From positions 41,538 to 105,537 of the forward strand of contig CAWHFJ010000014.1 in NCBI GenBank assembly GCA_963828495.1: a stretch of 64,000 nt of DNA. Reading direction: 5' to 3'. Each line of letters begins with the position of its first letter. Within the stretch, counting starts at the first letter, position 1. The position numbers and the translations under genes are program-made. Source of the DNA: Candidatus Omnitrophota bacterium. Its GTDB lineage: Bacteria; Omnitrophota; Gorgyraeia; Zapsychrales; Fredricksoniimonadaceae. This document shows, one piece after another, positions 10,438 through 25,621 of this stretch. The notes under the pieces were generated by a model. That model saw nothing but the letters and a program-made list of their open reading frames with translations, was not told the origin of the DNA and did no database searches.

Positions 10438-11099
10438 TTAGGCGCTTGGGAATTGCTTGTGTTTAATGTCCCTGCCTTCGACGATATAAATCACTTCTTC
10501 GGCGATATTGGTGGACAAATCCGCAATGCGCTCCAGGTTGTGAGAGATACGCATCACATGCAGACAACGGGGGATCACATCCTTCTTGCCCCGCATCAGT
10601 TCAGTCAAGTCTTTAAGGATCTTATCGCCGGCCTCATCAACAATATCATCCCTATCACAAACTGTATCGGCCAGGGCAATATCTTCATTGACAAAGGCAT
10701 TGATGCTATCTTTGAGCATCCCCATCGTACTGTCCCCCATGAGCTTTAATTTATCAGAAAGGCCATTCACAGGATTTTTTAATAGAAAAAAGACCGCTTT
10801 CGCAGATATTAACGGCATGGTCTGCCATACGTTCAAGGTCCTTGTTCATCTTGATGATCATAATGACCAAGCCGCAGATCTACGGCCACCGGTTCATACT
10901 GGGCGATTATCTCAACACACATCCTCTCAATCTCCCGGTCATAGTCATTGGCGGCGGGCTCATTGGTATTAATGACCTCCTCCAATAAATTAATGTCTTT
11001 ATCCAAAATCCCCTTGATGCTCCGGCCCAGCATGTCTTCCACGAAGGCGGCATCTTTCAAAAGATAGTTTTTGAGTTCTGATATTTTTTCTCTAAGCAT
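10438..11099 (-). pseudogene. phoU: phosphate signalling regulator PhoU, reading frame broken twice
   Basis: N-terminal ORF ends ...IAQYEPVAVDLR. The conserved LVIMIIKMNKDLERMADHAVNICE reads only in a second frame. The rest (..MLKDSINAFVNEDIALADTV...ISHNLERIADLSTNIAEE) is in the third frame. Last gene of the pst operon. Confidence 0.8.
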
Positions 11100-11112
11100 G
11101 ATGTTTCTCCTA

Positions 11113-11873
11113 TTAACCGAACCTTCCGGTAATATAATCCTCCGTAATTTTACTCGACGGGTTCGTAAAGAAATCCGTGGTTTTACTAAATTCAATGATC
11201 TGCCCGTGCATCAAAAACGCGGTCTTGTCAGAAACCCTGCCTGCCTGCTGCATATTGTGCGTGACAACCACAATCGTGTATTCATCTTTTAATGTGCCCA
11301 TCAACTCCTCAATACGCGCGGTAGCGATGGGATCCAGCGCCGAGCAGGGCTCATCCATTAAAATGATCTCAGGGTCAACCGCAATTGCCCGGGCAATGCA
11401 CAGCCGCTGCTGCTGACCGCCGGAGAGCGACATGGCGCTTTTACCCAGATGGTCTTTGACCTCGTCCCATAAAGCCGCGCGCTTAAGGCTTTTTTCCACG
11501 GCTTCACTGAGAATACGACGATCTTTAATACCCACGATCTTAAGCCCGTAAGCAATATTCTCATAAATGATTTTGGAAATGGGGTGGATTTCTGAAATAC
11601 CATCCCCACCTTGCGCCTAAGCGCCACCACATCCGTATTTTTATCATAAATATCAATCCCGTCAACCAAAACTTCACCTTCCACACGAGTTAAGGGAATC
11701 AAATCATTCATGCGGTTAAAAATACGGATCAACGTCGACTTGCCGCAGCCGGAAGGACCGATCATGGCCACTATCTGATAAGGCTCGATGGTCATGGAAA
11801 TATTCTTCAGCGCCTGATTGTCGCCGTAATAAAAATTCAAATCTTGAACTTTAATGCTTCCTTTAATATCCAT
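11113..11873 (-). pseudogene. pstB: phosphate ABC transporter ATP-binding protein PstB, one frame break
   Basis: Walker A GPSGCGKST, then ...[29 protein letters not shown]...[14 protein letters not shown]...[10 protein letters not shown] continues in another frame, with 1 nt missing near 11568. Confidence 0.9.
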
Positions 11874-11888
11874 AATTATCCATTTTAA

Positions 11889-11925
11889 AGAGATTGCTTC
11901 GTCGCTTCGGCTCCTCGCAATGACA
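11889..11925. repeat. family A repeat
   Basis: agagattgcttcgtcgcttcggctcctcgcaatgaca between pstA and pstB. Confidence 0.85.
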
Positions 11926-11931
11926 CTTATC

Positions 11932-12855
11932 CTATTTCCCCGATGCCCAGCGGTTGCGGCGCATGACGTAAAACTGGGCCCATCCGTTGATGATCAAAAC
12001 CATTAAAATAAGCACAATCGCCCCGGCCCATGCCTGACGGTGCCAGTCATCAAAAGGCGCAATGGCATAAGTAAAAACCTGCAGCGGTAAGGCCGCGATC
12101 GGTTGAGTCAATGAACGCTGCCAGTAGTGGTTACCGAACGCCGTAAAAAGAAGCGGCGCTGTCTCTCCGGCGACCCTTGCCAAAGCCACCATAATTCCGG
12201 TGGTAATGCCCGCCAAAGCTGAGGGGATCACGATATCCACCGTGACGCGCCATTTGGGAACTCCTAAAGCCAAACCTGCCTCCCTCAACTGGGAAGGCAC
12301 CATCCGCACAAATTGCTCGGCTGTTCGCGTAATCATGGGGATCATCATAATCCCTAAGGCGAAACCACCGGAAAGGGCTGAAAAACTTTTCATCGGCAGC
12401 ACGCAGACAATATACGCGAATATCCCATAGACAATCGAAGGAATACCGTTCATCACATCAGCCACAAAACGGACCACCTGCGCAAAATTTTGATCGGCAT
12501 ATTCGCTAAGATACACCCCCGACCCCAAACCTATCGGCACTCCGACACAAACGGCCAGCCCTAACAAAGTCAGAGTTCCCACAATCGCGTTGGCCATGCC
12601 CCCGCCTTTTTCACCGACGGGTTTTGGCAGTTGCGTGAAAAAATCCCAATTCAACGAAGAAATGCCCTGAATGAACAAATGAGCCAAAATAACAAAAAGT
12701 ATAAAAAGTATCAAAAGAGCGCATAAAGACAACACATAGACCATGACACGGTCCCATATGGCCCGACGGAAACGTGTGCGTTCAAAAGATGTATATATAA
12801 GATCCTTTAAAGATTGCTTCGCTTCGCTCGCAATGACACTTGACAGAGGATTCAT
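11932..12855 (-). CDS. pstA: phosphate ABC transporter permease PstA
   Basis: PstA-type permease sequence. ATGA overlap with the pstC stop. The N-terminus contains repeat copy 12809-12838. Confidence 0.9.
   Translation of the reverse strand: MNPLSSVIASEAKQSLKDLIYTSFERTRFRRAIWDRVMVYVLSLCALLILFILFVILAHLFIQGISSLNWDFFTQLPKPVGEKGGGMANAIVGTLTLLGLAVCVGVPIGLGSGVYLSEYADQNFAQVVRFVADVMNGIPSIVYGIFAYIVCVLPMKSFSALSGGFALGIMMIPMITRTAEQFVRMVPSQLREAGLALGVPKWRVTVDIVIPSALAGITTGIMVALARVAGETAPLLFTAFGNHYWQRSLTQPIAALPLQVFTYAIAPFDDWHRQAWAGAIVLILMVLIINGWAQFYVMRRNRWASGK
12809..12838. repeat. family A repeat inside the pstA 5' coding region
   Basis: aaagattgcttcgcttcgctcgcaatgaca, translated on the minus strand as VIASEAKQSL. 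Confidence 0.85.
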
Positions 12856-13778
12856 CTAATCTCCACCGCAGGCCCTTTGGTGACAGACCATATCAAAATC
12901 CGGGCCAATATATTAACAACAATAGAAACTAAAAACAACACCAAACCTATTTCGATTAAAGATGACAAATACATGTTGGTGGCCGCTTCCGCAAATTCAT
13001 TGGCCAACACGCTGGCCAGGGTATACCCGGGAGAAAATAAAGACGCTGTGATCACCGCCGTATTACCGATAATCATGGTGACAGCCATGGTCTCACCGAT
13101 GGCCCGGCCCAAGGCCAAAATCACAGCACCCAAAATCCCCACCTTGCCGTAGCTTAAAACAATATCAGAAATCGCCTCCCAACGGGTGGTGCCCAAGGCA
13201 TAAGCGCTTTCCTTATAAACGCTAGGAACAGCCAGGATCACCTCACGGGACACCGAAATAATAAAAGGCACAATAATAATGGCCAGGATGATACTGGCAG
13301 AGAGAAAACTCACCCCATAATTAGGCCCCTGAAAAAAAGGTAGAAACCCTAGATATTTCCCTAAAAAAGGCTGAACAACGGTGCGCATAAAGGGTACCAA
13401 CACAAAAATACCCCACAGCCCATAAATGACGCTGGGAATGGCCGCCAAAAGGTCCACGAGAATAGATATGGCCTTTGACACCTTCAATGGTGCGTATTCA
13501 GCTAAATAAATGGCCGCCCCCACTCCGATGGGCACAGCCAGCAAAAGCGCTACCAAAGAAGTCACACAGGTGCCGAAAATAAACGGCAAAGCACCGAAAT
13601 TTTCCGCGACAGGATCCCATGTGCTATGAAACAGAAAACCTATCCCGAATTTTTTTAAAGTCAGATGTGAAGCGGAAACTAATTGAAAAAAAATACCAGC
13701 GACAATTATCAGAATGGAGATGGGAAAAACCGCCAATATTCTTCTGAATACTATGTCGCTGGTATCTTGTCTACTCAT
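12852..13778 (-). CDS. pstC: phosphate ABC transporter permease PstC
   Basis: PstC-type permease sequence; position between pstS and pstA. Confidence 0.9.
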   Translation of the reverse strand: MSRQDTSDIVFRRILAVFPISILIIVAGIFFQLVSASHLTLKKFGIGFLFHSTWDPVAENFGALPFIFGTCVTSLVALLLAVPIGVGAAIYLAEYAPLKVSKAISILVDLLAAIPSVIYGLWGIFVLVPFMRTVVQPFLGKYLGFLPFFQGPNYGVSFLSASIILAIIIVPFIISVSREVILAVPSVYKESAYALGTTRWEAISDIVLSYGKVGILGAVILALGRAIGETMAVTMIIGNTAVITASLFSPGYTLASVLANEFAEAATNMYLSSLIEIGLVLFLVSIVVNILARILIWSVTKGPAVEIR

Positions 13779-13841
13779 AAACTATGGGGGCCGACACAAG
13801 GTCGGCCCCTAACCTAATATTTGACCACTCCGCCCCTACGC

Positions 13842-14858
13842 CTAATATTTTACCTGTTCGAGCTTCTTTTGAATCAATTCTACCACATTAGGTGGAAGCG
13901 GCGCATAATCTAATTCTTCGGCATATTTCTGACCATCGGTGACTGCCCATTTGATGAAATTCACAATGGCCTCACCTTTGGCATGGTCACCCATTTGCTT
14001 GTAAATCAAAAGCCAGGTAAAACTGGCAATCGGATAAGCTTCGGGATTGGGGCTGTTGACCACCGAAACCCTGAAATCATTGGGAATGCGGACCCCATCC
14101 GCGGCTTTGGAAGTACTGGCCAAGGTCGGCTCAATATAGTTCCCGCTTTGATTTTTCAAAAAAGCATAAGGTAAACCATTTTGCTTGGCATAAGCTAATT
14201 CCACATAACCGATGCTGCCGGGTGTTTGCTTGAGCAAACCAGCCACCCCTTCGTTACCCTTACCGCCTAAACCAAGAGGCCAGTCGACTGATGTGCCTTT
14301 GCCGACTTTGCCTTTCCAAGCGCTGCTAATGGAACTTAAATAATCAGTGAAGATAAAAGAAGTGCCGCTGCCATCGGAGCGATGCACCACCACAATGGAG
14401 CTGCTGGGAAGATTGACACCGGCATTTTCTTCGGTAATGCGCGGATCGTTCCACTGGGTAATTTTCCCTAAATAGATATCGGCCAAAACATCGCCGCTTA
14501 ATTTAAGCCCCTTGCTGACACCATCAACATTATAGGCCACCGCCACTGATCCCATGACCATTGGAATATGGTAAATACGGCCAGGCGCTGCCGTAAGTTG
14601 ATCCATCGACATAGGACCATCCGAGGCACCGAAATCCACAGTTCTGGCCGTGATTTGCTTGATACCGCCGCCGGAACCAATGGATTGATAATTAAACGCA
14701 ACGCCGGGATTCGCCTTGCCGTACTCATCAAACCATTTGGAATAAATGGGATAAGGGAACGTGGCCCCTGCCCCGTTAATAAGAATTGAATCCGCGAAGG
14801 CAAACGTCGCCCCCACAGCTAATGCTACAACTAAGGCCAAAATCCTTTTCATAAACAA
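13842..14858 (-). CDS. pstS: phosphate ABC transporter substrate-binding protein PstS
   Basis: Signal peptide plus INGAGATFPYPIYSKW...SIGSGGGIKQ motifs of PstS. Confidence 0.9.
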   Translation of the reverse strand: MFMKRILALVVALAVGATFAFADSILINGAGATFPYPIYSKWFDEYGKANPGVAFNYQSIGSGGGIKQITARTVDFGASDGPMSMDQLTAAPGRIYHIPMVMGSVAVAYNVDGVSKGLKLSGDVLADIYLGKITQWNDPRITEENAGVNLPSSSIVVVHRSDGSGTSFIFTDYLSSISSAWKGKVGKGTSVDWPLGLGGKGNEGVAGLLKQTPGSIGYVELAYAKQNGLPYAFLKNQSGNYIEPTLASTSKAADGVRIPNDFRVSVVNSPNPEAYPIASFTWLLIYKQMGDHAKGEAIVNFIKWAVTDGQKYAEELDYAPLPPNVVELIQKKLEQVKY

Positions 14859-14875
14859 TCCCCTTTCTTACTATT

Positions 14876-16303
14876 CTAGAATTTAAAATTTATATCCATT
14901 TGGAACAGATTTTCAGGAGCTTTAACTGATGGACTTGTATTTGTTCCGTTAGCACTTACACCTTGAATACCAGGATCAATCTTGTAAATATTGCTGTGGA
15001 ACCAAGCCATGGTGAACCAAAGATTCTTCATCAAGCCGATATCCAGTTCACTGCGCCAGCCCTTGACATTGGTTTGCCCGGAATAAAAATCAGCATCAGG
15101 GAACACATCTAACCATGCGTCTCTTTCAATGACCTTATAATAGGTGGCGAGTTTCCATGTCCCCCAGCCACTAACGGCTGAATTACCCATATAGGCGCCA
15201 GCCATCCAAGCCTTATTCTGTTCATTTTTATAGGTAGTTACAGGTACATCCTTGGAATTTGAAGTATTATCAGCATAATCTCCAAAAATACCTATTTGAG
15301 GAATATATATAGGAGAAGGCAACATTTCCCCAAACGGATCATTGATGCCCATATCTACCGCTCCAACGATCACGTCATTAAAATTGTAAGTCATGCGGCC
15401 ACCGCCGGCAGATGTTGTTCCTGTATTAATCCCCAGGCCTTCGCCAAAACTTAAATGGGATGGATTGCTAATGTCATACCATGTTACTGCGCCTTTGTAA
15501 TAAACCTGATCAGTTAAATTACCTTTAAGACCACCTTGAGTTACTAACATATACGGATCTGTTTTAAGCGCTGTGGTGGGAGTCGCGGCATGAAGGTCAA
15601 ACACATCCTCCTGTATCCATGGTGTTACATACTCATTGAGTTTCTTTTGAAGTTGAATGCTGCCGCCTTCAGGGGTAATATTCGGATCCCAGAAGAAGCT
15701 GCTGCCTGCACCACCTGGACCAGGCTCCCAGATAGGATTGTCCATCTTGCCACCCATAAGGGTTGCCCACGAAGCAGGCGTATAAACAGCGTAAGCCTTA
15801 TTAAGGACCACATCCGCCTTGCCAAAAGTGTCCGTAGTGGCATTCGTAAGGCCATCTGTTTTACCATTCCCGCCCAAGGTGAGGTTATTACTACGAGCAC
15901 TTTCACCATCGGTTGCGATACCTACAACAAGTTTGACTTTATCATTAATTTGGTCTTCAAAATTCAAACGAGCACGGATACGGGCCCGATTTTGGTCTAA
16001 ATTATCACCGCTGGCAGAACCACCGGGAGCCTTCCTGACCTGAATCTGATCACGCAAACGAAAATCTCCCGATATTTTAAGACCACTCACCCAATCCGGA
16101 AGCATGCTTTTAAAAGTTTTTTCCTGGGAATTTTTCTCATCAGAGGTAATTTCGCCTTTGATTTGATTAGCTTCTTGACTGGTCAAAATCCCCTTGTCCT
16201 CCAGTTTCTGGATCAACGAATCGACACTGGTGCTGGCAGCCAAGGCTAAACCTTGCCAGGTAAAAATAAATCCAGCTACTAACATTAAAACAATTTTTTT
16301 CAT
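14876..16303 (-). CDS. outer-membrane porin, probably phosphate-related
   Basis: Signal peptide, N-terminal coiled segment, long Gly/aromatic-rich beta-strand-like sequence and a C-terminal ...INFKF. First gene of the pst transcription unit. Confidence 0.55.
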   Translation of the reverse strand: MKKIVLMLVAGFIFTWQGLALAASTSVDSLIQKLEDKGILTSQEANQIKGEITSDEKNSQEKTFKSMLPDWVSGLKISGDFRLRDQIQVRKAPGGSASGDNLDQNRARIRARLNFEDQINDKVKLVVGIATDGESARSNNLTLGGNGKTDGLTNATTDTFGKADVVLNKAYAVYTPASWATLMGGKMDNPIWEPGPGGAGSSFFWDPNITPEGGSIQLQKKLNEYVTPWIQEDVFDLHAATPTTALKTDPYMLVTQGGLKGNLTDQVYYKGAVTWYDISNPSHLSFGEGLGINTGTTSAGGGRMTYNFNDVIVGAVDMGINDPFGEMLPSPIYIPQIGIFGDYADNTSNSKDVPVTTYKNEQNKAWMAGAYMGNSAVSGWGTWKLATYYKVIERDAWLDVFPDADFYSGQTNVKGWRSELDIGLMKNLWFTMAWFHSNIYKIDPGIQGVSANGTNTSPSVKAPENLFQMDINFKF

Positions 16304-16377
16304 AACTCCTCCCTAGTTAATCGTGTTTTTATTGGGCTGCCTTATATCTTAGACTGCCTCTAGTGTACGTAACGAGT

Positions 16378-16415
16378 GTGACAAAATCCTTAAGAAGTTG
16401 TGAACTTTTTGTGAA
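16378..16415 (-). promoter_or_regulatory. Pho-box-like cassette, copy 1 (TTCACA-N5-TTCACA-N6-TAAGGATTTTGTCAC)
   Basis: 38-nt block conserved in 3 copies with identical spacing. Lies 74 nt upstream of the porin ATG. Confidence 0.6.
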
Positions 16416-16417
16416 TT

Positions 16418-19400
16418 TTAATTAGGGGTAAACATTAACTCAAAGGCGCCGTTGACTGTTAAATTGGATGTAAAACGGATAATATTAAAGTTAAATCCTT
16501 TAAACCCGTCAGGCATATTAGCGGCAGCCCCATCCTGAATCACCGGAACACTGTCCCCTGAGGACTGTTCAATAAACTGAGGCTTGAAATCAAGGTCAAT
16601 CCCCCCCTCTGACGTTTTTCGGGAGGAGACCTGGGCTTTATTCACGGCAGACACGACCTCTTTCACATAGGCCAGGGTTTCTTGTACCTGCGCATCACCA
16701 TTTTGCCATCTTTCCTTTGTGGTGTTTGGTCGAAATGACGACGCATAAGGCTCATAAGCCTTAACCGCAAGCCTTGGGTTGATCGCATTCACTGCAGCAG
16801 CAACGATCTCGTACAATTGACCTAAAACATCTTCTACGTCTCTGCGCTCACCGTTTGTTAAGGGACTGCCCTTAGGATTTAAGTCGGGCCATGCGCTTCG
16901 TACTGTTATATAGCGGCCATATACCCCGCGTATATTATCATTGACTTGTTTCATCAAAAATATAACCACCGGAATGAGTAAATCGCTTGTCCAGTGTATC
17001 CGCTGTAATTTATCTTCTAATTGAGAATTTTTGAGGACATCGGAGATCTTTGAGAAAATCTTTACAGCATCATCATCCAGCGTATAAATGCCGTTGGACG
17101 CTCTATGCTTTTCAACTAAATCGTTCAATGAAGCCATTTTTTCTTCCAGAAAACGGTTTATGGTTTTTACACCGCCTTTCTCTAAAATTTCCTTTACGGT
17201 AGAATCACCGGTAAGGGGATAATCCGTATTGACAGCTCCCACCAATGGCAAATCAGAATTTTTTACCTTTGAGGTCATAAGAGTGATATGCGCATCGCGG
17301 GCATCCTGTATCGGCCCAAAATCAGGGGACTTAGGAAAAACTAAAACATCTCCTGTCTTGCCATTCTCCGCCATGCTCTGCGCGGCACGGATGCCATTGA
17401 TAAGGCCTAAATCCCACAAATTAGGATCAGGGATGATATCACTCCCAATAAATTCAAACACTCTCCTTTTAGATCCCTTTTTTATGATCCTTAAAGCATC
17501 CAAATAAGCATAGCCGCTGCCTCTTGCTCTTAAAGGCAAGACATAAACGTCAACGCCTGTTCCTATCAATTTGGCTTTTATGGCTTGAAGGTGTTCTTCA
17601 ACGGCGCCGATGTCTCCCCTGCTCTCACAGATGATAACTACCGCGTCAACGCTCCTTGTATTGGGATTAAGTTGCGCCTCAATCGCTTTCCTGCCTTCTG
17701 CCTTGACCAAATCAATATTCTTTTGCTCCTGGGGCCTCCCATTTCTATATGTCCCATAGGGATCGATCAATTTGTCTAGTTGCCTGTCCGCTTTATCAAT
17801 GACCCTGTCAACATTCCTTCCCCATAAAAAATTGAGACTTTTTAGATTGGGAATCCAAAAATTAAATACGGTGTAAAAAACGGAAAATAAAGAAATAAGG
17901 CCCGACACAAAATCAAATTCAGACCTCCCCGAAAGATACAGATAGGATGAAAGAGCTAACTGCAAAGGCGCCAATAAACTAAACATCATGCTGCGGAAAT
18001 CGCGCAGCTTATGGTCTCTGGCATCTTCCGGCAGTTGGGCTGAATATATAGGTATGCCCCCTGCTATAACTTGTTGCAGCCTTGTTTGGCTTTCTTGAAA
18101 AATAGCTTTAGGATCTCTATATAAACCCGGCAATATCTCATTGCCTTGCTGTAATAAGTGGGGAATTTCCAATTTCAACATTACCTGTAATCCCCACCTT
18201 ACAGGATCGTAGAAAAATATCTTTCGCGCTATCCCATACAGCAATTCCCTCCCCCAATCTTTTCCCCGAAATTTATAAGTCATAAACTTATCAATGGTCC
18301 CGCGGCATTTCAGGATCAATAAAAACAGCTTCGCGTATCTCATACTCTTGATGATCGTATTCTTGTCTTCCATGAGACTCGTTCGCATAATGTCCGCCTG
18401 CTGGTCCCTGCTCCTGAGCAAAGGTTCGTTGGCCAAGCGCTCGGTCAAATATAATACCGTCTCGTTGGCTACCCTAAGAAATCTTTTATAACTGACTTGA
18501 TAAAACTTATTGTAAGGCGCTTCTTGATAAAATTTCTCATCCTCCGTGTCTCTGATCAGCTCAGGGCTATACCGCATTGAACTGATCTGCTCAAAGATAT
18601 TGTTGAGGATGAAATTTAGATCGCTGCTCAATTGTTTGAGAGGGACCCTTTGGTTAGGTTGGGACCATGTTCGCATCAGTTCTTCCCACTTATCGAAGGG
18701 CCCTATTTTAGTCTCCTGTGCCACAGTTCGCATGGCCTGGTTAGAACCGTTATGATTTTCTGTAGTTGTATCTTTTAACGTCCCTTCATTCAAATCCTTG
18801 ACCAAGGTACGTAAATCAGCCGTAGGCAGATAAACGAAATTGTGATAGAGAGCCCGTATGGCTTTAGTCCCCCCATATACACCCAATAAACCAGCAATCC
18901 AAAAAACGTATTTCACAATACTTGGGAATGAAGGCAAGTCCCGGTTCAGGTTATTAATGTGATTGATATCGAATTGATCTATAAGAGATGTGAAGTTCTC
19001 CAGCAATTTCTTATTTTTTGGAGTATCCTCATGGTTTCTCAGATAAGTCTGAAATGTTCCTTCAAACTCTCTGGGATCGTGCTGACTTTGTGATTTTTGG
19101 GTAAGCTCATCCAAATTTATTTCCGGCTCGGTAATATGCGTGGTCTTTGACGAGAGTTGCTGAGAGTATTCCGGCCATTGCCGGACAGCCTCAAGCGCCC
19201 ATTCTATGGCCACCTTATGCACCTGCGCTGTTCTTATGGAGTCTCCGCGAGGGTCATCGAGGGAACGCAATTCCAAGGCGGAATAAATCTGAGGATCAAG
19301 AAGTGCATTCAGCGGCTCTTCCTGACGGGTCTCCCTGTTGAGTTTTCTATTGGCGGCCCGAAAAATCCGGTTTGTGGTCGGATTGTCAATGGCTTGTGCG

Positions 19401-20302
19401 TCAGTGTAAACATTGGCCTGCCAGGAAGGATTCTCCCTGATCGTGGCGCAGAGACGCTCATCTGAAGAATTTAAATAAACATTTAGAACCAAAAGCCGGC
19501 CTGATGGATCAGCCATCAAACGCGACAGAACGATGGTGCGCAAGGATTCATCGAGATCAGGAAGCTGAAGAATTCTGACTACTTCGGCATTCTGAGACTT
19601 ACCGATATAGTCCTCCTGTTGGTCAGGCCCCAAGCTTTGAAAATAGCTTAAAGATCCGAACGATCTTGGCCTTGCCAAATAAGTTAGATCCAGGGGAGCC
19701 TGTGAATTTTGTGGAGAAGGGTTATCCCGTATATAATTCCGAGTCATCCCTTCGGCCAAAACATACAGATCATGGTCTATGTATTGCTGAATGTTGCCTA
19801 TTTCCGGCGAGGTAGTGAGGAAAATCTTATGCGCCTCTGTCAACTTGTCAAAAAGAACCTTTGTGTTAATATCCTCATGCCAGGCTCCTTTGGGAGGTTT
19901 TTCAAACAAAGCCTTATTAAGGGCATTGGGAAGATTCTTCAGGGCCAATTTGCTCATAATCCAAGTTCTGGCCAAATCCCTTATAACAGCGGCTTGCGGA
20001 ACATCCGGATGCCTTTTATAATAGGCATCAAACTCATTGTAGATCCTGGCAAGGTCCCCTTCCGTCCAGTATTTGCCCTGCAGCAACGAGGCCAAGCCGA
20101 TTGAATCCGGGTTGGCGGCAAGCAGGGTCAGAAACACTTTCTTGACCGCTTCAGGCGATACGTCCGGATAAATGGCATCAGGAGCAAAATTATCTTCAGT
20201 GCTGGTTTGAAGTATTTTTGGGTTGTTGGTAAGAATATCTTCAACCGATTGATAACCCAGGTCAAGGACTTCCCCATTACCTGCTGCTGGAGGCTTTAGC
20301 AA
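16418..20302 (-). CDS. large multi-domain membrane protein of unknown function; probable continuation of the ORF starting at ATG 20660
   Basis: 1294-codon ORF that opens immediately after a stop with TTG. Hydrophobic segments near aa 460-480 and 770-820. Segment VDAVVIICESRGD...VYVLPLRARGSGYAYLDAL. C-terminal GGIDLDF...GFKGFNFNIIRF. Confidence 0.7.
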   Translation of the reverse strand: MLKPPAAGNGEVLDLGYQSVEDILTNNPKILQTSTEDNFAPDAIYPDVSPEAVKKVFLTLLAANPDSIGLASLLQGKYWTEGDLARIYNEFDAYYKRHPDVPQAAVIRDLARTWIMSKLALKNLPNALNKALFEKPPKGAWHEDINTKVLFDKLTEAHKIFLTTSPEIGNIQQYIDHDLYVLAEGMTRNYIRDNPSPQNSQAPLDLTYLARPRSFGSLSYFQSLGPDQQEDYIGKSQNAEVVRILQLPDLDESLRTIVLSRLMADPSGRLLVLNVYLNSSDERLCATIRENPSWQANVYTDAQAIDNPTTNRIFRAANRKLNRETRQEEPLNALLDPQIYSALELRSLDDPRGDSIRTAQVHKVAIEWALEAVRQWPEYSQQLSSKTTHITEPEINLDELTQKSQSQHDPREFEGTFQTYLRNHEDTPKNKKLLENFTSLIDQFDINHINNLNRDLPSFPSIVKYVFWIAGLLGVYGGTKAIRALYHNFVYLPTADLRTLVKDLNEGTLKDTTTENHNGSNQAMRTVAQETKIGPFDKWEELMRTWSQPNQRVPLKQLSSDLNFILNNIFEQISSMRYSPELIRDTEDEKFYQEAPYNKFYQVSYKRFLRVANETVLYLTERLANEPLLRSRDQQADIMRTSLMEDKNTIIKSMRYAKLFLLILKCRGTIDKFMTYKFRGKDWGRELLYGIARKIFFYDPVRWGLQVMLKLEIPHLLQQGNEILPGLYRDPKAIFQESQTRLQQVIAGGIPIYSAQLPEDARDHKLRDFRSMMFSLLAPLQLALSSYLYLSGRSEFDFVSGLISLFSVFYTVFNFWIPNLKSLNFLWGRNVDRVIDKADRQLDKLIDPYGTYRNGRPQEQKNIDLVKAEGRKAIEAQLNPNTRSVDAVVIICESRGDIGAVEEHLQAIKAKLIGTGVDVYVLPLRARGSGYAYLDALRIIKKGSKRRVFEFIGSDIIPDPNLWDLGLINGIRAAQSMAENGKTGDVLVFPKSPDFGPIQDARDAHITLMTSKVKNSDLPLVGAVNTDYPLTGDSTVKEILEKGGVKTINRFLEEKMASLNDLVEKHRASNGIYTLDDDAVKIFSKISDVLKNSQLEDKLQRIHWTSDLLIPVVIFLMKQVNDNIRGVYGRYITVRSAWPDLNPKGSPLTNGERRDVEDVLGQLYEIVAAAVNAINPRLAVKAYEPYASSFRPNTTKERWQNGDAQVQETLAYVKEVVSAVNKAQVSSRKTSEGGIDLDFKPQFIEQSSGDSVPVIQDGAAANMPDGFKGFNFNIIRFTSNLTVNGAFELMFTPN

Positions 20303-21062
20303 TCAACTGGATAAAGAACCGCAAATCTTTGCGTTCCTGAACCATAAATCTGACAATCTGCTCTCTGACACCCTGGGCAGACGAGAACATGATCGTTCGT
20401 ATAAGAGCATCCACAGAATCCTTCGTGTTCGGATAATACTTGAGCATCTCCAAGACTTCCATACGATTAAGAGGATTGGTATCGTTAAGGCCTTCGCCTA
20501 TAAATGCCTGAGGGTTGGTCGTAGGTACCGCATGACTACTGTAACCCCTTTGAGGTGTCTCCACGCGGCTATCCTGGGCCTGAAGGGAACCGGCACCCAG
20601 AGCAACCGCCGCCGAGAATAAACCAAGCTCTTTTAAAAACTGTCTACGGTTACTCAACATGGCTTTGTCTTTCTGGGTGCTTCCACCTTGCTTCGAGGTT
20701 TCTATCTGCACTCCCATTTTTCTTAAAATTTCTATCTGCCGCAAATATTGCGTTTTAAGATCAACCAGTTTGACAGACAAATCCGCTATTTTTTGACGTT
20801 CGGGGTAATACTGATACTGGACAAAGACCTCCGGGTCATTACCGGCGAAAGTTTGCCAAACTCTCAGGGCATCTTGATACTCTTCTTGTACCGATGCAAT
20901 TTCCCGGGCGTAATAATTGATGTTATCAATAGCCTGCCTGGCTTGCGCCCCAATATCCATTCTCGTTTTCTCAACTTTAGCCCTAGCCGCGTCAAGCTGT
21001 GAGGCAATAATTTCTTTTTCAAGTCTCCCTTGTTGATTAATGACCGGCCAAGAAAAACTCAT
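20277..21062 (-). CDS. composite ORF: end of the TolC-like domain (to ~20661), then in frame a twin-arginine signal (ATG 20660) and the N-terminus of the next large protein
   Basis: FSWPVINQQGRLEKEIIASQLDAARAKVEKTR is TolC-repeat-like. MLSNRRQFLKELGLFSAAVALGAGSLQA matches the RRxFLK Tat consensus. Confidence 0.6.
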   Translation of the reverse strand: MSFSWPVINQQGRLEKEIIASQLDAARAKVEKTRMDIGAQARQAIDNINYYAREIASVQEEYQDALRVWQTFAGNDPEVFVQYQYYPERQKIADLSVKLVDLKTQYLRQIEILRKMGVQIETSKQGGSTQKDKAMLSNRRQFLKELGLFSAAVALGAGSLQAQDSRVETPQRGYSSHAVPTTNPQAFIGEGLNDTNPLNRMEVLEMLKYYPNTKDSVDALIRTIMFSSAQGVREQIVRFMVQERKDLRFFIQLIAKASSSR

Positions 21063-21643
21063 GACCGGATTAAAACCCGGGGTCGTGGTTGAAACGCGGT
21101 CAATGCTCCCCCCAAAGGTTCGTATGGCAAACTGCTTATATTCACATCCGGGGGCGTCATTATTGCACCAACACCAAGGGTCGGTAAATTCTTTACATGA
21201 TTTACTGTTAATGACTTGAGTTGAATCTCTACATCAGCCTGGGCCTTTAGCAGACGCGGGTCCTTGCTGTTTGGGCCCGTAGCTTGCGCAATAAGCCCTT
21301 GAGGATCTGCAACACTTGAGAATGTCCCTGCTGTGAACGGCACATCAGCAGTCATCGTCGGGCCTGCCGCTGATGTTTGACCGGTTAAAAGATTAAGTGT
21401 ATTGGCCCAAAAGCTCTCTTGACGCTTAAATTCTACGGCATCGCCATCTGCTTTATGGATCTGTCCCTGGAGCTTTATCGGCAATGTATCATCTTGCGCA
21501 ACGATGCCAAGAGAGGTGGCGATACCCACTTTTTGCTGTGCCTCATTTAAATCCCTGAGCAGTGCGTCTTGTATCTGAATTTTCTGCTGTACGCCATAGA
21601 GCTCAATTAATGCATCATGGGCATTCTCGATCTGCTGTAACAT
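21059..21643 (-). CDS. TolC-like outer-membrane-factor domain, middle fragment (probable continuation of 21615-25535)
   Basis: Helical heptad-like sequence, then ...DPRLLKAQADVEIQLKSLTVNHVKNLPTLGVGAIMT, the typical start of the second TolC repeat. No signal peptide of its own. Confidence 0.65.
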   Translation of the reverse strand: MLQQIENAHDALIELYGVQQKIQIQDALLRDLNEAQQKVGIATSLGIVAQDDTLPIKLQGQIHKADGDAVEFKRQESFWANTLNLLTGQTSAAGPTMTADVPFTAGTFSSVADPQGLIAQATGPNSKDPRLLKAQADVEIQLKSLTVNHVKNLPTLGVGAIMTPPDVNISSLPYEPLGGALTAFQPRPRVLIRS

Positions 21644-24600
21644 GGGCCGTTTGCAAAGTATAATTTAAGGAATTTGTTCCCGCACGCGCCAATGCTTCTT
21701 CTTTGCCTATGCCCCCGCTCACTATATGAATAAAATCACCAAAAAAGTCCCCAAAAATAATACTGCCTATATTGGCAAGACGTCCATATGGCGTAATTCC
21801 GGCTCCAAAACCATTAATCAGGGCATTGGCCCCGACCATGCCGGAAAACTTGCCATTCCCATTCCCGAACAAACTGCCTGTAATATTAAATTTCTTAGCC
21901 CTGGGAAAGCCTTCGGCAATTTTACTTTGCCAATATTGATGAAACTCATCAATGAACAAGTATTGATTTTGGTCGACCAGTGGATCTAGTTTTGCAAAGT
22001 TCAACGCAGGACCCTGAGGAGAATAATAGGCCGGCGGCGCTGCAGGCATGTTGGCTTGAGCGGTCCTATTGGGCATAAAGAGACTGGTGGCATATCCCTC
22101 AAGCAGGTCAGGCGGCGGCGGGGGCGGCGGAGATACCACTGACACCGTCGAAGGTGAATTTAAATGGCTTGCCGATAACAGGGCCTGGGCTTGTTTTTTT
22201 TCTTGCTCGGTCAATAAGGTGACCCTCACCCTGTCCTGCGGTACCATGGGGCCGGGGTGTAAAATATGCATTGGGTCATAGACTGTAACCTTAACAGAAT
22301 TAAGCCCTTCAAGGGCTATGGATGGGCTATGCGGACTTGGGAGAACAGCCGTCACTTCACCTAATAATCTTCCGTGGTAAGTGCCTACTTCTACAAAATC
22401 TCCGACGTGGGCATTAGGCAGAATGACGGAGAGTTGATCGTCTTCAAAACTGCCCAGAAAAACCCGGTCCTTGAGGACCCGATAAAGGCCATCGCCCTCT
22501 TGAAAAACGTTTGAGCCATTCTCGCCGGACCAAACAATAACGCCGTCTGCGTCAGCCTTAACATCCAGCCGGGCCATTTGATCTTGGAGTTCACGTGCGT
22601 CGGCTATCAATTGGTTCTTGGCAATGGCCAGATTCGCCAATGTCTTGGCATTAATAGGCGTGCCGTCTGCCAGGAAGGGATGACTGAGCTTGATATTTAT
22701 AGCTTCGATTTGGGTGAGTTTAATATTAAGTTGCGTCTTAAGAGGTGTGGGGTCCCCCTGGGCAACGGACTGTCCCTGTTTGACCCAGTCTCCCTGGTTG
22801 ACCTTCAATTGATAGGACGTGGCCGCAGGGGCCGTTTTGGTGTATTCATTGACTTTACCGACGAAGGTATGCGTAGTCCCTTGACCCGGGAAATTAGGAA
22901 GTGTAAAATTATCGGTCGGTCCTAAAAATTGTACATGCAACCTCAACTGTTGGTCCAATTGTTCTTCAGATATAGGCGCCTGCGGCGTCACTATAATACT
23001 TAAATATCTGGTTTGCAGCTTAGATGACAAATCATAATTAAACCAGAAGGTGCTTTTATTCACAGGAATTTCAGTCCTGTGAATATCCTGCAGAGTGACG
23101 GCCATATTTTCAAAATACTGAACATTGCCTGGGATCGGGATATCAAAACGCAGTCTGTCCCTGGTACGGTAACTTAGGACCACAGTCCCCGGTTTTATAG
23201 AATCCCCTTCAGAAACGCTCACATCATAGACTGTAGAATTATACGGGGCTTTTAATTGGCGAAGGCCCTCTTGGGTCTTTGCATCATCCAATTGTTGTTG
23301 CAGATCCAGGAGTTTTAACTTAGCTTCAACCAAATCCAAGCTGTTACTTGCCCCTTGAGACTGCCCTTTTTCCAAAGTGCTCACTAAATCTTGCTGGATT
23401 TGGATGTCACTGGTCAATCTTTCAATATCAAAGGTGTTGTGACGATCTTTCACATTCACTAAAGGACCATTAACAGAAACATTCTTGCCTGATACAAGAC
23501 CAGAAACGACCCCGCCGACCCTCGACACAATCTGACTTTCTAAAGGCGTCGGACGCATAAGATAATCATGCGTATAAATGGCTTGGGCGGCCCTTGGTGC
23601 CGGAATGTTATGTGTTAAAGCAGCCGGTACACCAGGCAACGCCTGCGCAACTGTTGAGAGCGGCGCAACTGCCGGCATGGACGGTAACTTTGCCAAATCT
23701 TCCGGAGGAGGCGATCCGCTGGGTAATCCTCCATCAGGTCCAACCGCTTTAACCGCCTGGGCAATGGCCTGCCTTGTTTCCGGGCCCAAGCGCCCATCCT
23801 CAACGTGCACACCTAATTTATGCTGTGCGGCAACAATGATGGCCTCCAGCACGCGCCCCACATGGTTCTGTTTAAAAGAACGGTCCCAATTCCTTGCCAT
23901 CCAGTTGATGTCCACATTATATTTCCTGCCTGTTCGCGGGTTGCTTCCCCTATTCAATGCCATGACATCATCCAGATGGACAACTTTTCTGACCTCTTGA
24001 ATATCTTGACGGTCCGCAGGAGTAATCTCCCCTCCAAAACGAAGGATATGATTCGACGGGGCCAGGGCCTGTGCGGGTGGAGCTTTGAGTGTCGGCGTGG
24101 GGGCCTCCTGCACCAATGAAGCCGTGACTGCCCGAGTTTGATCTTGCGCCAACAGCCGGGGCCGGGCCAATCCACCCAACGGCGAAGTAAGAGTCAAAAC
24201 CAAAGCCACCGTCAAGACCAATTTCCGTAAAAATGACGGCAGAGCCCTTTGTGCCAAATCTCCCTGATCCGAGGTAATAGGATTATCAACGGCCAGTGCT
24301 ACGGTCATAGCAAAATTCTTTAACGATAATTCACTAATGGGCTCACTGCCGGAAGCGTTCATGCCGTTGCGCCCAATGGGCAAAAGTTCGACACGGGCCA
24401 CGCCAAGCGAGGAACCTGCCGTCATCTGAACAAAATCTCCTTTGATGGCATTAGCATCAGGTACCCTCAAGGTCTTCATCGCCTTGTCTAAATCCCCAAA
24501 AAAAAGCCCTCCGGAAAAATATTTTCGCGGCACCACCTGTTGAGAAATGGGATCCGTATCCTCACGAATATAGTTGTAGGCCCCGGTTTTATAAATATGC

Positions 24601-25535
24601 AAATATTGTTTATAGATCTGTTCTTTGGCATTCTTGTCCACCCCATCGATCCCGGAAATTTTCTTCTTATTGACATAACAATGAGACAGAATATTTCTTT
24701 TTAACGTGCGTTTAAACCAGGCGGCCATGACCATAGAATAAAAAATCTGACGAACAGGAGCAAAATTCTTCCCTTCATTGATCTCTTTTTCCAATTCGGG
24801 CAATATGATCTCTTGGGTAATAATCGCAGTTATTTTATGTGTCTCATATCCCCCTCCCCTAACCCCTCCCACCAGGGGAGGGGAACTATGTTTCTTTAAG
24901 GCTAAATAATCCTCCTCCAACATGACCTTAAGATGTGTCTGGCCAATCAAGGCGGAGTTGCCCATGTCATAAACAATGGCGCGATCCGGAACGATCCAGA
25001 CCTTATTGTACGTATTGACCGGAAGCTCGGTTGTCCCGAATTTTTCATACGTTTTTTTGTAGACTTGTGCCCAAAATTTCTTGCCCAAACGTGTTTCCGG
25101 ATAAGTCAATGAAGAGGCCAATTGCTTTAGTAGTTTGTCCTGCTTAAGAAGAGTATTGCCGGCATCGGTCAAGGCTAATTCATCCGGAATGATCCGGCCG
25201 GATTCATAGGGGGACAGATTGACCCAAAGGTCTTTTTCGGGGATCGTTAGACAAGTGAGGAAATATTTGACCAGAAGAGACGTTTCCTTCTGGTCAAGCG
25301 TATGGCGGTCCCCGGAATCGACCACAAAATCGAGTTCAAACGGCTTATCCGGATAAACACGCATCCCGCGTAAAACAGGAAAAGAATAGGGAACGGAAAG
25401 TTCAAGAATATTGCTCTGCAGGTGAGGCAGAAAAGGCGTGTCTTGGGCTTGAACTCTCTCCAAATTGCTTTCGAACAATAAGAACACCAATAAGCCGCAG
25501 ATTATTCGAAAAATTTTGGATTTTCTCTTCAACAT
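21615..25535 (-). CDS. giant envelope protein: N-terminal anchor/signal, ~400-aa conserved unknown domain, PG-binding-like segment, HlyD/MFP-like units, Pro8 linker, start of TolC-like domain
   Basis: 1306-codon ORF with KDLWVNLSPYE...LKVMLEEDYLAL domain and LGVHVEDGRLGPETRQAIAQAV. MFP-like signatures are KAPYNSTVYDVSVSEGDSIKPGTVVL, YQLKVNQGDWVKQGQSVAQGD and VKADADGVIVWSG. PPPPPPPP is followed by FNITGSLFGNG...IVSGGIGKEEALARA. Confidence 0.75.
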   Translation of the reverse strand: MLKRKSKIFRIICGLLVFLLFESNLERVQAQDTPFLPHLQSNILELSVPYSFPVLRGMRVYPDKPFELDFVVDSGDRHTLDQKETSLLVKYFLTCLTIPEKDLWVNLSPYESGRIIPDELALTDAGNTLLKQDKLLKQLASSLTYPETRLGKKFWAQVYKKTYEKFGTTELPVNTYNKVWIVPDRAIVYDMGNSALIGQTHLKVMLEEDYLALKKHSSPPLVGGVRGGGYETHKITAIITQEIILPELEKEINEGKNFAPVRQIFYSMVMAAWFKRTLKRNILSHCYVNKKKISGIDGVDKNAKEQIYKQYLHIYKTGAYNYIREDTDPISQQVVPRKYFSGGLFFGDLDKAMKTLRVPDANAIKGDFVQMTAGSSLGVARVELLPIGRNGMNASGSEPISELSLKNFAMTVALAVDNPITSDQGDLAQRALPSFLRKLVLTVALVLTLTSPLGGLARPRLLAQDQTRAVTASLVQEAPTPTLKAPPAQALAPSNHILRFGGEITPADRQDIQEVRKVVHLDDVMALNRGSNPRTGRKYNVDINWMARNWDRSFKQNHVGRVLEAIIVAAQHKLGVHVEDGRLGPETRQAIAQAVKAVGPDGGLPSGSPPPEDLAKLPSMPAVAPLSTVAQALPGVPAALTHNIPAPRAAQAIYTHDYLMRPTPLESQIVSRVGGVVSGLVSGKNVSVNGPLVNVKDRHNTFDIERLTSDIQIQQDLVSTLEKGQSQGASNSLDLVEAKLKLLDLQQQLDDAKTQEGLRQLKAPYNSTVYDVSVSEGDSIKPGTVVLSYRTRDRLRFDIPIPGNVQYFENMAVTLQDIHRTEIPVNKSTFWFNYDLSSKLQTRYLSIIVTPQAPISEEQLDQQLRLHVQFLGPTDNFTLPNFPGQGTTHTFVGKVNEYTKTAPAATSYQLKVNQGDWVKQGQSVAQGDPTPLKTQLNIKLTQIEAINIKLSHPFLADGTPINAKTLANLAIAKNQLIADARELQDQMARLDVKADADGVIVWSGENGSNVFQEGDGLYRVLKDRVFLGSFEDDQLSVILPNAHVGDFVEVGTYHGRLLGEVTAVLPSPHSPSIALEGLNSVKVTVYDPMHILHPGPMVPQDRVRVTLLTEQEKKQAQALLSASHLNSPSTVSVVSPPPPPPPDLLEGYATSLFMPNRTAQANMPAAPPAYYSPQGPALNFAKLDPLVDQNQYLFIDEFHQYWQSKIAEGFPRAKKFNITGSLFGNGNGKFSGMVGANALINGFGAGITPYGRLANIGSIIFGDFFGDFIHIVSGGIGKEEALARAGTNSLNYTLQTAHVTADRECP
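24849..24886. repeat. family B hairpin repeat inside the giant gene
   Basis: tccccctcccctaacccctcccaccaggggaggggaac, translated in frame as SSPPLVGGVRGGGY. Confidence 0.85.
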
Positions 25536-25583
25536 AACTTTTGCCTATATGACACGGCCACAATATAAATATATGTGCTACGC

Positions 25584-25621
25584 GTGACAGAATCCTTACG
25601 GAGATGTGAATTTCTTGTGAA
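25584..25621 (-). promoter_or_regulatory. Pho-box-like cassette, copy 2
   Basis: TTCACAagaaaTTCACAtctccgTAAGGATTCTGTCAC on the minus strand, 48 nt upstream of the giant-gene ATG 25535. Confidence 0.6.

What the first reader, a model, noticed from the sequence alone, without database searches (positions are those of the whole stretch)
16378..16415. A 38-nt cassette with TTCACA-N5-TTCACA direct repeats occurs three times, each upstream of a minus-strand unit
On the minus strand the three copies read as follows. 16415-16378: TTCACAaaaagTTCACAacttcTTAAGGATTTTGTCAC. 25621-25584: TTCACAagaaaTTCACAtctccgTAAGGATTCTGTCAC. 29000-28963: TTCACAaaaaaTTCACAttctttTAAGGATTTTGTCAC. Spacing is identical in all three. 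Hexamer direct repeats with 11-bp periodicity are the binding architecture of OmpR/PhoB-family regulators, and TT(A/T/C)ACA-N5 repeats are the Bacillus PhoP box. Copy 1 sits 74 nt upstream of the porin-pstSCAB-phoU unit, exactly where a Pho box is expected. The conserved TAAGGAT...GTCAC part could provide the -10 region and start site.
Basis: partly seen in the sequence, partly recalled or inferred. Interest (0 to 1): 0.7.

Follow-up and report, generated by a model that had tools for sequence, protein, structure and literature searches.

The report
Phosphate-starvation promoter cassette of Omnitrophota
The three 38-base cassettes are most likely binding sites for a phosphate-starvation regulator, built into promoters for a phosphate-uptake operon, a regulator gene and a giant envelope protein in an uncultivated Omnitrophota bacterium; this is a familiar kind of switch seen in a new phylum.

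Summary
Three near-identical 38-nt cassettes lie on the minus strand and nowhere else in the 64 kb.

The cassette reads as four 11-bp in-phase units: TTCACA, TTCACA, TTAAGGAT and GTCAC. E. coli Pho boxes sit at the same distance from their -10.

The window comes from a Candidatus Omnitrophota bacterium. A genome scan and a metagenome scan recovered the same architecture in dozens of Omnitrophota contigs. There it sits upstream of porin-pstSCAB-phoU, of a response-regulator gene that follows a PhoR-like kinase gene, of giant proteins, and once of ppx-ppk. Positions left free in the searches were conserved. In other phyla the third unit is an ordinary nTCAnn repeat.

Best reading: an activator-dependent Pho-regulon promoter with two dimer sites replacing the -35. 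The upstream, conserved PhoB/RegX3-like regulator RR1 is the likelier binder. Binding and phosphate dependence are inferred, not shown.

The suggestion that TAAGGAT...GTCAC is the -10 and start site does not.

This is a new member of a known kind, of modest interest. The oddities are the separately conserved third unit, the regulator cascade and the giant target gene.

The parts
16378..16415 (-). Cassette copy 1: TTCACAaaaagTTCACAacttcTTAAGGATTTTGTCAC. Four 11-bp units starting at 16415, 16404, 16393 and 16382. It begins 2 nt after the stop codon of the giant gene.
   Evidence: An orthologous site in L114 (porin 92 % identical) differs only in the inter-dimer linker and in the spacer.
16362..16367 (-). 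Predicted -10 hexamer TACACT of the porin-pst promoter, 10 nt after the cassette. The predicted start is near 16355, giving a leader of about 52 nt with the Shine-Dalgarno sequence GGGAGGAG.
   Evidence: The hexamer position is invariant in 21/21 Omnitrophota-type sites from the genome scan and the window, where it was not required by the search.
25584..25621 (-). Cassette copy 2: TTCACAagaaaTTCACAtctccGTAAGGATTCTGTCAC.
   Evidence: It is identical in contigs L001 and L002.
25568..25573 (-). Predicted -10 hexamer TATATT of the giant-gene promoter. The predicted start is near 25561.
28963..29000 (-). Cassette copy 3: TTCACAaaaaaTTCACAttcttTTAAGGATTTTGTCAC. It lies in the 86-nt gap between the kinase gene and RR2.
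   Evidence: A cassette occupies the same place, just after the HK gene, in most Omnitrophota loci.
28947..28952 (-). Predicted -10 hexamer TATATT of the RR2 promoter. Only 6 nt separate it from the ATG at 28940, so the RR2 mRNA would be leaderless or nearly so (inference).
   Evidence: The upstream in-frame ATG at 28958 lies inside the N10 spacer, so it cannot be the start codon if this hexamer is the -10.
10438..16303 (-). Target operon 1: porin (Porin_5), pstS, pstC, pstA, pstB and phoU. pstB and phoU are split by single-base indels in the window and intact in L001.
16418..25535 (-). Target gene 2: a giant protein of 3038 aa in L001, read as four ORFs in the window. It has weak HlyD-like and OEP/TolC-like Pfam hits. 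Its N-terminal region is homologous to a 1873-aa protein in L008 that also follows a cassette.
27736..28940 (-). Target unit 3: the OmpR/PhoB-family response regulator RR2 (28236-28940) and a 167-aa protein with an apparent N-terminal signal sequence and no Pfam or NCBIfam match (27736-28239).
29027..31493 (-). Candidate sensor and binder. RR1 (30792-31493) is PhoB/RegX3-like. The histidine kinase occupies 29027 to about 30800; the longest ORF runs to 30943. It has HAMP, PAS, HisKA and HATPase domains and scores above the NCBIfam PnpS cut-off. No cassette lies upstream of this pair.

Best explanation
Each cassette is the activator-binding part of a Pho-regulon promoter of an Omnitrophota bacterium. 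It consists of four 11-bp units in helical phase. Units 1 and 2 (TTCACA-nAAAG-TTCACA) form one head-to-tail dimer site for an OmpR/PhoB-family regulator. Units 3 and 4 (TTAAGGA-TTTT-GTCAC) form a second, promoter-proximal site. The array replaces a -35 element and ends exactly 10 bp upstream of a TAnAcT -10 hexamer. Under phosphate limitation the PhoR/PnpS-like kinase would phosphorylate the conserved PhoB/RegX3-like regulator RR1. RR1 would bind the array and recruit RNA polymerase as PhoB does. That would switch on the porin-pstSCAB-phoU operon, the giant envelope protein gene, and a second-tier regulator gene, RR2. Shown here: the sequence architecture, its fixed geometry, its conservation across the phylum, and its gene associations. 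Inferred: the identity of the binding protein, the phosphate dependence, and the transcription start sites (about 16355, 25561 and 28940).
For: (1) There are three copies, far above chance, and no weaker copies in 64 kb.
(2) A genome-collection scan for the first 30 nt gave 21 loci, 17 of them of Omnitrophota type. In all 17 the unconstrained remainder is conserved: TTyGTnAC, then N10, then TAnnnT. The 4 hits from Firmicutes and Isosphaeraceae lack it.
(3) A metagenome scan left positions 18-33 free. It gave 44 unique Omnitrophota-type sites with consensus TTCACA.AAAgTTCACA...ccTTAA.GATtTtGT.AC-N10-TA.ACTT. In the 71 other unique sites, unit 3 is nTCAnn (T 48, C 57, A 63 of 71), which shows a general four-unit in-phase array.
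(4) Linkers inside each proposed dimer site are A/T-rich and conserved (AAAG, ATTTT). The linker between the two sites is variable.
(5) The downstream genes are consistently Pho-type: receiver-only protein, small ORFs, porin-pstS-pstC-pstA-pstB-phoU, the RR2 gene, giant proteins, and ppx-ppx-ppk1 in L012.
(6) An RR1-kinase pair lies immediately upstream of a cassette in most loci. The kinase passes the NCBIfam PnpS cut-off (451 vs 400 bits). RR1's best solved relative is RegX3, the mycobacterial phosphate regulator.
(7) RR1 is 63-75 % conserved among lineages, with near-identical recognition helices (TRT[V/I]DTH[I/V]KR). The RR2 genes are of two types only 39-40 % identical to each other, and one relative (L140) has no RR2 between the kinase gene and the cassette-porin unit. 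The cassette is the same throughout.
(8) No sigma-70-type -35/-10 pair is shared by the three sites.
(9) Literature: E. coli Pho boxes are 11-bp direct repeats located 10 bp upstream of a TAN3T/A -10 (PMC1906773). [quoted passage not shown]
Against: No binding, footprint, start-site or expression data exist for this organism. Unit 3 (TTAA[G/T/A]GAT) is not a recognisable copy of TTCACA, yet it is conserved as such across promoters and genomes. Ordinary degeneracy of one repeat does not explain this, and it could mean that a second factor binds there. The RR1-kinase operon has no cassette, unlike the autoregulated phoBR of E. coli. Both RR1 and RR2 score similarly against PhoB models and both fall below the equivalog cut-offs. 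Genome-wide site content could not be assessed, because only 64 kb of this genome is available.
Confidence: 0.8

Rival explanations
1. Composite two-regulator promoter. The distal TTCACA repeats and the proximal TTAAGGAT-TTGTCAC element are bound by different proteins, for example RR1 at one and RR2 (or another factor) at the other. Alternatively, RR2 rather than RR1 is the binder and autoregulates. This keeps the Pho-promoter reading but changes who binds.
For: Unit 3 is conserved as TTAA(G/T/A)GAT rather than as a degenerate TTCACA. Where a locus has two cassettes, the one before RR2 carries TTAATGAT or TTAAAGAT and the one before the pst genes carries TTAAGGAT. A cassette precedes an RR2 gene in nearly every locus, as expected for autoregulation.
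Against: RR2 proteins of different lineages are only 39-40 % identical and have different recognition helices, while the cassette is the same. Relative L140 has kinase gene, cassette, small ORF and porin with no RR2 gene in between. Relative L138 has an ordinary GACACA at unit 3 in front of a porin operon, which suggests that unit 3 is interchangeable with a normal repeat.
Confidence: 0.15
2. TTCACA-N5-TTCACA is the whole regulator site, and TAAGGAT...GTCAC is the -10 region and transcription start.
For: TAAGGA lies 17 nt after the first TTCACA, which itself resembles TTGACA. The stretch is highly conserved.
Against: TAAGGA lacks the T at position 6 of a -10 hexamer. An invariant TAnnnT occurs exactly 10 nt after GTnAC in all sites, although it was unconstrained in the genome scan. 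In other phyla the equivalent positions hold nTCAnn and GTnACA repeat units in phase. The consensus scan finds no shared -35/-10 pair there.
Confidence: 0.04
3. Promoter of an alternative (ECF-type) sigma factor, with the second TTCACA as the -35 and yGTnAC as the -10, 16 nt apart.
For: The TTCACA-N16-(C/T)GT(C/A/T)AC spacing and the CGT-like -10 resemble ECF promoters. This resemblance is recalled from memory and was not tested against a library.
Against: It does not explain the duplicated TTCACA at 11 bp or the invariant TAnAcT 10 nt downstream. No sigma or anti-sigma gene was recognised next to the cassette in 17 loci, judging from ORF N-termini and partial Pfam scans; a two-component system is always there instead. 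The associated genes are the classic Pho regulon.
Confidence: 0.03
4. A non-regulatory dispersed repeat, such as a REP-like or mobile-element remnant.
For: Three near-identical 38-nt copies lie within 13 kb.
Against: The copies are always intergenic, always oriented toward the downstream gene, and sit at a fixed distance from a -10. They are conserved in front of orthologous genes across a phylum, while the spacers diverge. Rfam finds nothing there.
Confidence: 0.01

Closest known systems
E. coli PhoB-dependent promoters (for example pstS with two Pho boxes)
   Same: Both have 11-bp direct repeats with an A/T-rich linker. Both replace the -35. In both the array ends 10 bp upstream of a TAN3T -10 (PMC1906773, PMC11870197). 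The proximal half-site here, (T/C)TGTCAC, is nearly the E. coli CTGTCA(C/T). Both sit upstream of pstS and next to a PhoR-type kinase gene.
   Different: The distal repeat core is TTCACA rather than CTGTCAT. Unit 3 is a conserved TTAAGGAT. The RR1-kinase operon itself carries no box, and a second regulator gene does instead.
[quoted passage not shown] 1999, as cited in PMC11870197)
   Same: Both have four units in phase. Units 1 and 2 match TT(C)ACA exactly. The kinase here resembles the Gram-positive PnpS, PhoR and WalK type with HAMP and PAS domains.
   Different: Unit 3 does not fit the consensus, and unit 4 begins with G. The organism is a diderm of the PVC group. The repeats are far more uniform between promoters than in Bacillus.
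Cyanobacterial SphR Pho boxes (CTTAACCT, three or more tandem 8-bp repeats with 3-bp linkers; PMC1906773)
   Same: Both show 11-bp periodicity. The TTAA core resembles Omnitrophota unit 3, (c/t)TTAAGGAT.
   Different: Only one of the four units here is of the TTAA type. The resemblance is a lead, not a tested relationship.
Streptomyces PhoP direct repeat units (GTTCACC, 11-nt DRus; PMC2275107, PMC4415409)
   Same: Both share the (G)TTCAC core and 11-nt units, and arrays can extend beyond two units.
   Different: The Streptomyces context is GC-rich, with variable numbers and quality of units. There is no fixed four-unit cassette with a conserved odd third unit.

Membership tests
Pho box / PhoB(PhoP)-dependent promoter | Tandem direct repeats with 11-bp periodicity and a TCAC / TGTCA / TT(A/T/C)ACA-type core | tested here: met
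   TCAC cores lie at cassette positions 2, 13 and 35 (spacing 11 and 22) in all three copies. Units 1 and 2 are exact TTCACA. Unit 4 is GTnAC(a). In other phyla's sites unit 3 is nTCAnn.
Pho box / PhoB(PhoP)-dependent promoter | A/T-rich linker within each two-unit box (minor-groove contact in PhoB-DNA complexes; from established knowledge, Blanco et al. 2002) | tested here: met
   Positions 8-10 are A in 38-42 of 44 sites. Positions 29-33 read ATtTt. The linker between the two boxes (positions 18-22) is variable.
Pho box / PhoB(PhoP)-dependent promoter | The box replaces the -35 and ends 10 bp upstream of a TAN3T -10 | tested here: met
   TAnnnT lies at exactly N10 in 3/3 window copies and in 21/21 Omnitrophota-type sites where it was unconstrained. 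No shared -35/-10 pair was found. The rule is quoted in PMC1906773.
Pho box / PhoB(PhoP)-dependent promoter | Located upstream of canonical Pho-regulon genes in several genomes | tested here: met
   Sites precede porin-pstSCAB-phoU in the window and in dozens of contigs. One site precedes ppx-ppx-ppk1 in L012. Sites precede PhoB-like regulator genes.
Pho box / PhoB(PhoP)-dependent promoter | A cognate PhoR/PhoB-type two-component system is present | tested here: met
   The kinase scores 451.5 bits against NCBIfam PnpS (cut-off 400). RR1 and RR2 have PhoB as their best model, but at 254-258 bits both are below the 296 cut-off. RR1's best solved relative is RegX3. The pair is adjacent to a cassette in most loci.
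Pho box / PhoB(PhoP)-dependent promoter | Bound by the phosphorylated regulator, with transcription induced by phosphate limitation | not testable with these tools
   This needs EMSA, footprinting or DAP-seq, plus expression data. The organism is uncultivated.
Bacillus-type PhoP box (four TT(A/T/C)ACA units) | All four units resemble TT(A/T/C)ACA | tested here: not met
   Units 1 and 2 fit. Unit 3 is TTAAGG, TTAATG or TTAAAG in 44/44 Omnitrophota-type sites. Unit 4 is GTnACa. So it works like this family but is not a strict member.
ECF-sigma promoter | A cognate sigma/anti-sigma gene pair adjacent to and downstream of the motif (autoregulation), with AAC in the -35 and CGT in the -10 | tested here: not met
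   No such genes were recognised downstream of or beside the cassette in 17 loci, judging from ORF N-termini and Pfam on a subset. The -35 candidate has CAC, not AAC. An additional invariant TAnnnT is left unexplained.
Sigma-54 promoter | GG and GC dinucleotides 10 nt apart (TGGCAC-N5-TTGCW) | tested here: not met
   By direct reading of the sequence, the only GG (positions 27-28) is 6-7 nt from GT (positions 34-35), and there is no GC.

The most novel reading that the evidence does not exclude
The cassette is a two-input promoter. An RR1 dimer occupies the TTCACA repeats, and a different protein reads the separately conserved TTAA(G/T/A)GAT-TTGTnAC element. That protein could be the cassette-induced RR2, possibly modulated by the co-induced receiver-only protein. 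Together they would form a phylum-wide feed-forward cascade: PhoR-like kinase, then RR1, then RR2, then pst. The cascade would also couple phosphate starvation to production of giant envelope proteins in these ultra-small, possibly host-dependent bacteria.
Probability: 0.15. Interest if true: 0.6.

Novelty: new member of a known kind. Interest (0 to 1): 0.35.

Why it matters
The result gives the first concrete cis-regulatory motif, and a small predicted Pho regulon, for Candidatus Omnitrophota, a phylum for which I know of no pure-culture isolate and for which a full-text search found no paper on phosphate regulation. The predicted regulon contains porin-pstSCAB-phoU, a second-tier regulator, a receiver-only protein, small conserved ORFs, ppx-ppk and giant envelope proteins. 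The motif is sharp enough to scan metagenomes and to interpret metatranscriptomes: three exact copies in 64 kb, with the next best site 70 bits lower. It places giant, unannotated proteins under predicted phosphate control, which is a testable hint about their role. Mechanistically it is an ordinary PhoB/PhoP-type switch, so its general interest is modest.

Tried and rejected
- A PWM scan of the whole window for weaker copies found none; the next best site scores 1.9 bits against 73-75.
- An Rfam scan found only one tRNA at 40567-40639 and nothing at the cassettes, so there is no support for an RNA element.
- A sigma-70 consensus and terminator scan around the three copies found no shared -35/-10 pair. 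It also found no terminator between the giant gene and copy 1.
- TAAGGAT as the -10 was rejected, for the reasons given under the rival explanations.
- An ECF-type or sigma-54 promoter was rejected on geometry and synteny.
- A CRP-like TGTGA/TCACA palindrome was rejected because all TCAC cores point the same way.
- A dispersed repeat or mobile element was rejected on position, orientation and cross-genome conservation.
- Deciding between RR1 and RR2 from family models failed. Both score about 255 bits against PhoB and both are below the cut-off. The preference for RR1 rests on conservation and synteny only.
- Pfam and NCBIfam on the giant protein gave only weak HlyD-like and OEP-like hits, and nothing for the 167-aa protein.
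- A literature search for phosphate regulation in Omnitrophota found nothing relevant.
- The window's own genome was not among the GTDB representative genomes scanned: none of its three sites was returned. Its genome-wide site count therefore could not be obtained.

Full report
**Observation**

The three minus-strand cassettes are in the sequence exactly as quoted, at 16415-16378, 25621-25584 and 29000-28963.
- TTCACA-N5-TTCACA occurs three times with no mismatch, against 0.34 expected even when one mismatch is allowed.
- TAAGGATTYTGTCAC occurs three times exactly, against 0.26 expected with two mismatches allowed.
- A 54-nt PWM scores the three copies 73-75 bits and the next best site in the 64 kb only 1.9 bits.

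So this is a sharply defined three-member set.

Each cassette is followed, after exactly 10 nt of unrelated sequence, by a TAnnnT hexamer. These are TACACT at 16367-16362, TATATT at 25573-25568 and TATATT at 28952-28947.

Read in 11-nt steps, the cassette is four units in helical phase:
- unit 1: TTCACAaaaag
- unit 2: TTCACAnnnnn
- unit 3: TTAAGGATTyT
- unit 4: GTCACnnnnnn

The TCAC cores lie at positions 2, 13 and 35.

**Gene context**

All genes below are on the minus strand.
- RR1 (30792-31493) is an OmpR/PhoB-family regulator.
- A HAMP-PAS histidine kinase follows (29027 to about 30800). It scores above the NCBIfam cut-off for PnpS, the phosphate kinase of Streptococcus (451 vs 400 bits).
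- Copy 3 lies between the kinase gene and RR2.
- RR2 (28236-28940) is a second OmpR/PhoB-family regulator, followed by a 167-aa protein with no family match.
- Copy 2 precedes a giant gene (25535-16418).
- Copy 1 begins 2 nt after the giant gene's stop codon and precedes porin-pstS-pstC-pstA-pstB-phoU (16303-10438).

Look-up of the porin found a 99.2 %-identical metagenome contig, L001. In it the giant gene is one 3038-aa ORF and pstB and phoU are intact. The window differs by scattered single-base indels. The four "units" the ORF list shows between copies 2 and 1 are therefore one gene.

**Source organism**

PstS, PstC, the kinase and RR2 are 83 %, 93 %, 85 % and 80 % identical to proteins on a contig of a Candidatus Omnitrophota MAG, L017 (JADFXX010000003.1).

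**Comparative evidence 1: genome collection**

A scan of 185,579 species-representative genomes for TTCACA-N5-TTCACA-N6-TAAGGAT returned 21 loci.
- Fourteen are labelled Omnitrophota. Three more, labelled Bacteroidota or Planctomycetes MAGs, carry the same full cassette and the same gene order.
- In all 17 the part of the cassette that the search did not require is conserved. It reads TTyGTnAC, then 10 variable nt, then TAnnnT with invariant T, A and T.
- The four hits from Firmicutes and Isosphaeraceae lack this remainder and are chance matches.

A PWM scan of these loci found second, more diverged cassettes about 800 bp upstream of the first. They carry TTAATGAT or TTAAAGAT in place of TTAAGGAT.

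**Comparative evidence 2: metagenomes**

A metagenome scan required only the two TTCACA, GTnAC and TAnnnT, and left positions 18-33 free.
- 44 unique sites are of Omnitrophota type. Their consensus is aA.A.TTCACA.AAAgTTCACA...ccTTAA.GATtTtGT.AC-N10-TA.ACTT.
- G28 was allowed to be A or G by the sorting rule and is G in 44/44. A29 was fully unconstrained and is A in 44/44.
- The A/T-rich linkers inside units 1-2 and units 3-4 are conserved. The linker between units 2 and 3 is variable.
- The other 71 unique sites, mostly from other taxa, have nTCAnn at unit 3 (T 48, C 57, A 63 of 71) and GTnACA at unit 4.

Four in-phase repeats followed at N10 by a -10 therefore appear to be a widespread architecture. 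The Omnitrophota peculiarity is a separately conserved third unit.

**Downstream genes**

The typical Omnitrophota order is RR1, kinase, [cassette], RR2, [cassette], receiver-only protein (150 aa), small conserved ORFs, porin, pstSCAB, phoU.

Cassettes also precede giant proteins in L008 and L012. The L008 protein's N-terminus is homologous to that of the window's giant protein (30 % identity, E 2e-37). In L012 a cassette precedes ppx-ppx-ppk1.

Every Omnitrophota-type metagenome site with readable downstream sequence leads into an RR2-type gene, a receiver-only gene, a small ORF or a porin-pst operon.

**Comparison with known systems**

- E. coli PhoB binds tandem 11-bp direct repeats located 10 bp upstream of a TAN3T/A -10 (PMC1906773).
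- The E. coli core is CTGTCAT. [quoted passage not shown]
- The Streptomyces unit is GTTCACC (PMC4415409, PMC2275107).
- Cyanobacterial SphR uses CTTAACCT (PMC1906773).

The cassette matches this family on repeat core, periodicity, A/T-rich intra-box linkers, absence of a -35, the 10-bp distance to the -10, the target genes, and the neighbouring PhoR-type system. It is not a strict Bacillus-type box, because unit 3 does not fit.

**Mechanism proposed**

Two head-to-tail regulator dimers occupy units 1-2 and units 3-4. The proximal one contacts sigma region 4 in place of a -35, as in PhoB promoters. That last step comes from established knowledge of PhoB and was not tested here. Transcription would start about 7 nt after the TAnnnT hexamer. 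For RR2 that position is the A of the ATG at 28940, which would make the mRNA leaderless in this strain. In L017 the homologous promoter has a 36-nt leader.

**Which regulator binds?**

RR1 is the more likely binder, at roughly 0.55-0.6 within the main reading. The reasons are:
- RR1 is 63-75 % identical across lineages, with near-identical recognition helices (TRT[V/I]DTH[I/V]KR).
- RR1 is always encoded with the kinase.
- RR1's best solved relative is RegX3.
- RR2 exists in two forms only 39-40 % identical, with different recognition helices, while the cassette stays the same.
- Relative L140 has kinase gene, cassette, small ORF and porin with no RR2 gene in between.
- Relative L138 has an ordinary GACACA at unit 3.

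RR2 would then be a second-tier regulator whose own targets are unknown.

**Unexplained**

- Why unit 3 is conserved as TTAA(G/T/A)GAT.
- Why, in loci with two cassettes, the one before RR2 carries T or A at position 27 and the one before pst carries G.
- What the giant protein does. Its only family hits are weak HlyD-like and OEP/TolC-like matches.

**Verdict**

The -10 assignment needs correcting: the true candidate lies 10 nt downstream of the cassette. This is a new, well-defined member of a known class of promoter in an uncultivated phylum. It is useful for annotating Omnitrophota and for reading metatranscriptomes, but it is not mechanistically surprising.

Noticed in passing
window 21639, 21107, 20287, 19021-19010, 11568, 11103/11101, 10871, 10786, 9037: Single-base indels relative to the 99.2 %-identical metagenome contig L001 split the 3038-aa giant gene, pstB, phoU and an lptF/G gene into several ORFs. 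These are either assembly indel errors or strain-specific pseudogenes.
   Followed up: partly
window 16418-25535 (-): This giant protein (3038 aa in L001) has only weak HlyD-like (aa 711-802) and OEP/TolC-like (aa 1424-1557) Pfam hits. Its N-terminal region (aa 68-344) is homologous to a 1873-aa protein in L008 that also follows a cassette. Giant proteins appear to be recurrent members of this regulon.
   Followed up: partly
L012 1946 (-) and 1966 (+): Two cassettes lie back to back. The minus-strand one drives a giant gene. The weaker plus-strand one points toward a 63-aa ORF and then runs antisense into ppk1.
   Followed up: no
L020 1738-2187 (-), L023 5855-6061 (-), L020 1416-1604 (-), L017 3966-4184 (-): Omnitrophota pst operons carry conserved small genes between the cassette and the porin gene. 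These are a receiver-only response regulator (about 150 aa), a Cys-rich 66-69-aa protein (MCPCLSSKSKYATC...), and 62-73-aa proteins with no Pfam match. None of these lies between copy 1 and the porin gene in the window.
   Followed up: no
L035, L038, L053, L067, L086, L101, L104, L108, L124, L126, L128, L139: A metagenome family of sites reads TTCACAaactcTTCACAaattcATCAAAttcccGTCACaattccccggTATATTaataa. It has the same four-unit geometry but no obvious ORF within about 400 nt downstream. Its taxon and target are unknown.
   Followed up: no
window 27736-28239 (-): This 167-aa protein has an apparent N-terminal signal sequence (MKILTIGIVTLLFLGSGLAPVLAKV) and is co-transcribed with RR2. It has no Pfam or NCBIfam match.
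   Followed up: no
window 16416-16420 and 16250-16480: Copy 1 starts 2 nt after the stop codon of the giant gene, and no terminator-like hairpin is predicted there. Read-through from the giant gene into the pst operon is therefore possible.
   Followed up: no
window 40567-40639 (+): This single tRNA gene is the only Rfam match in the window.
   Followed up: no
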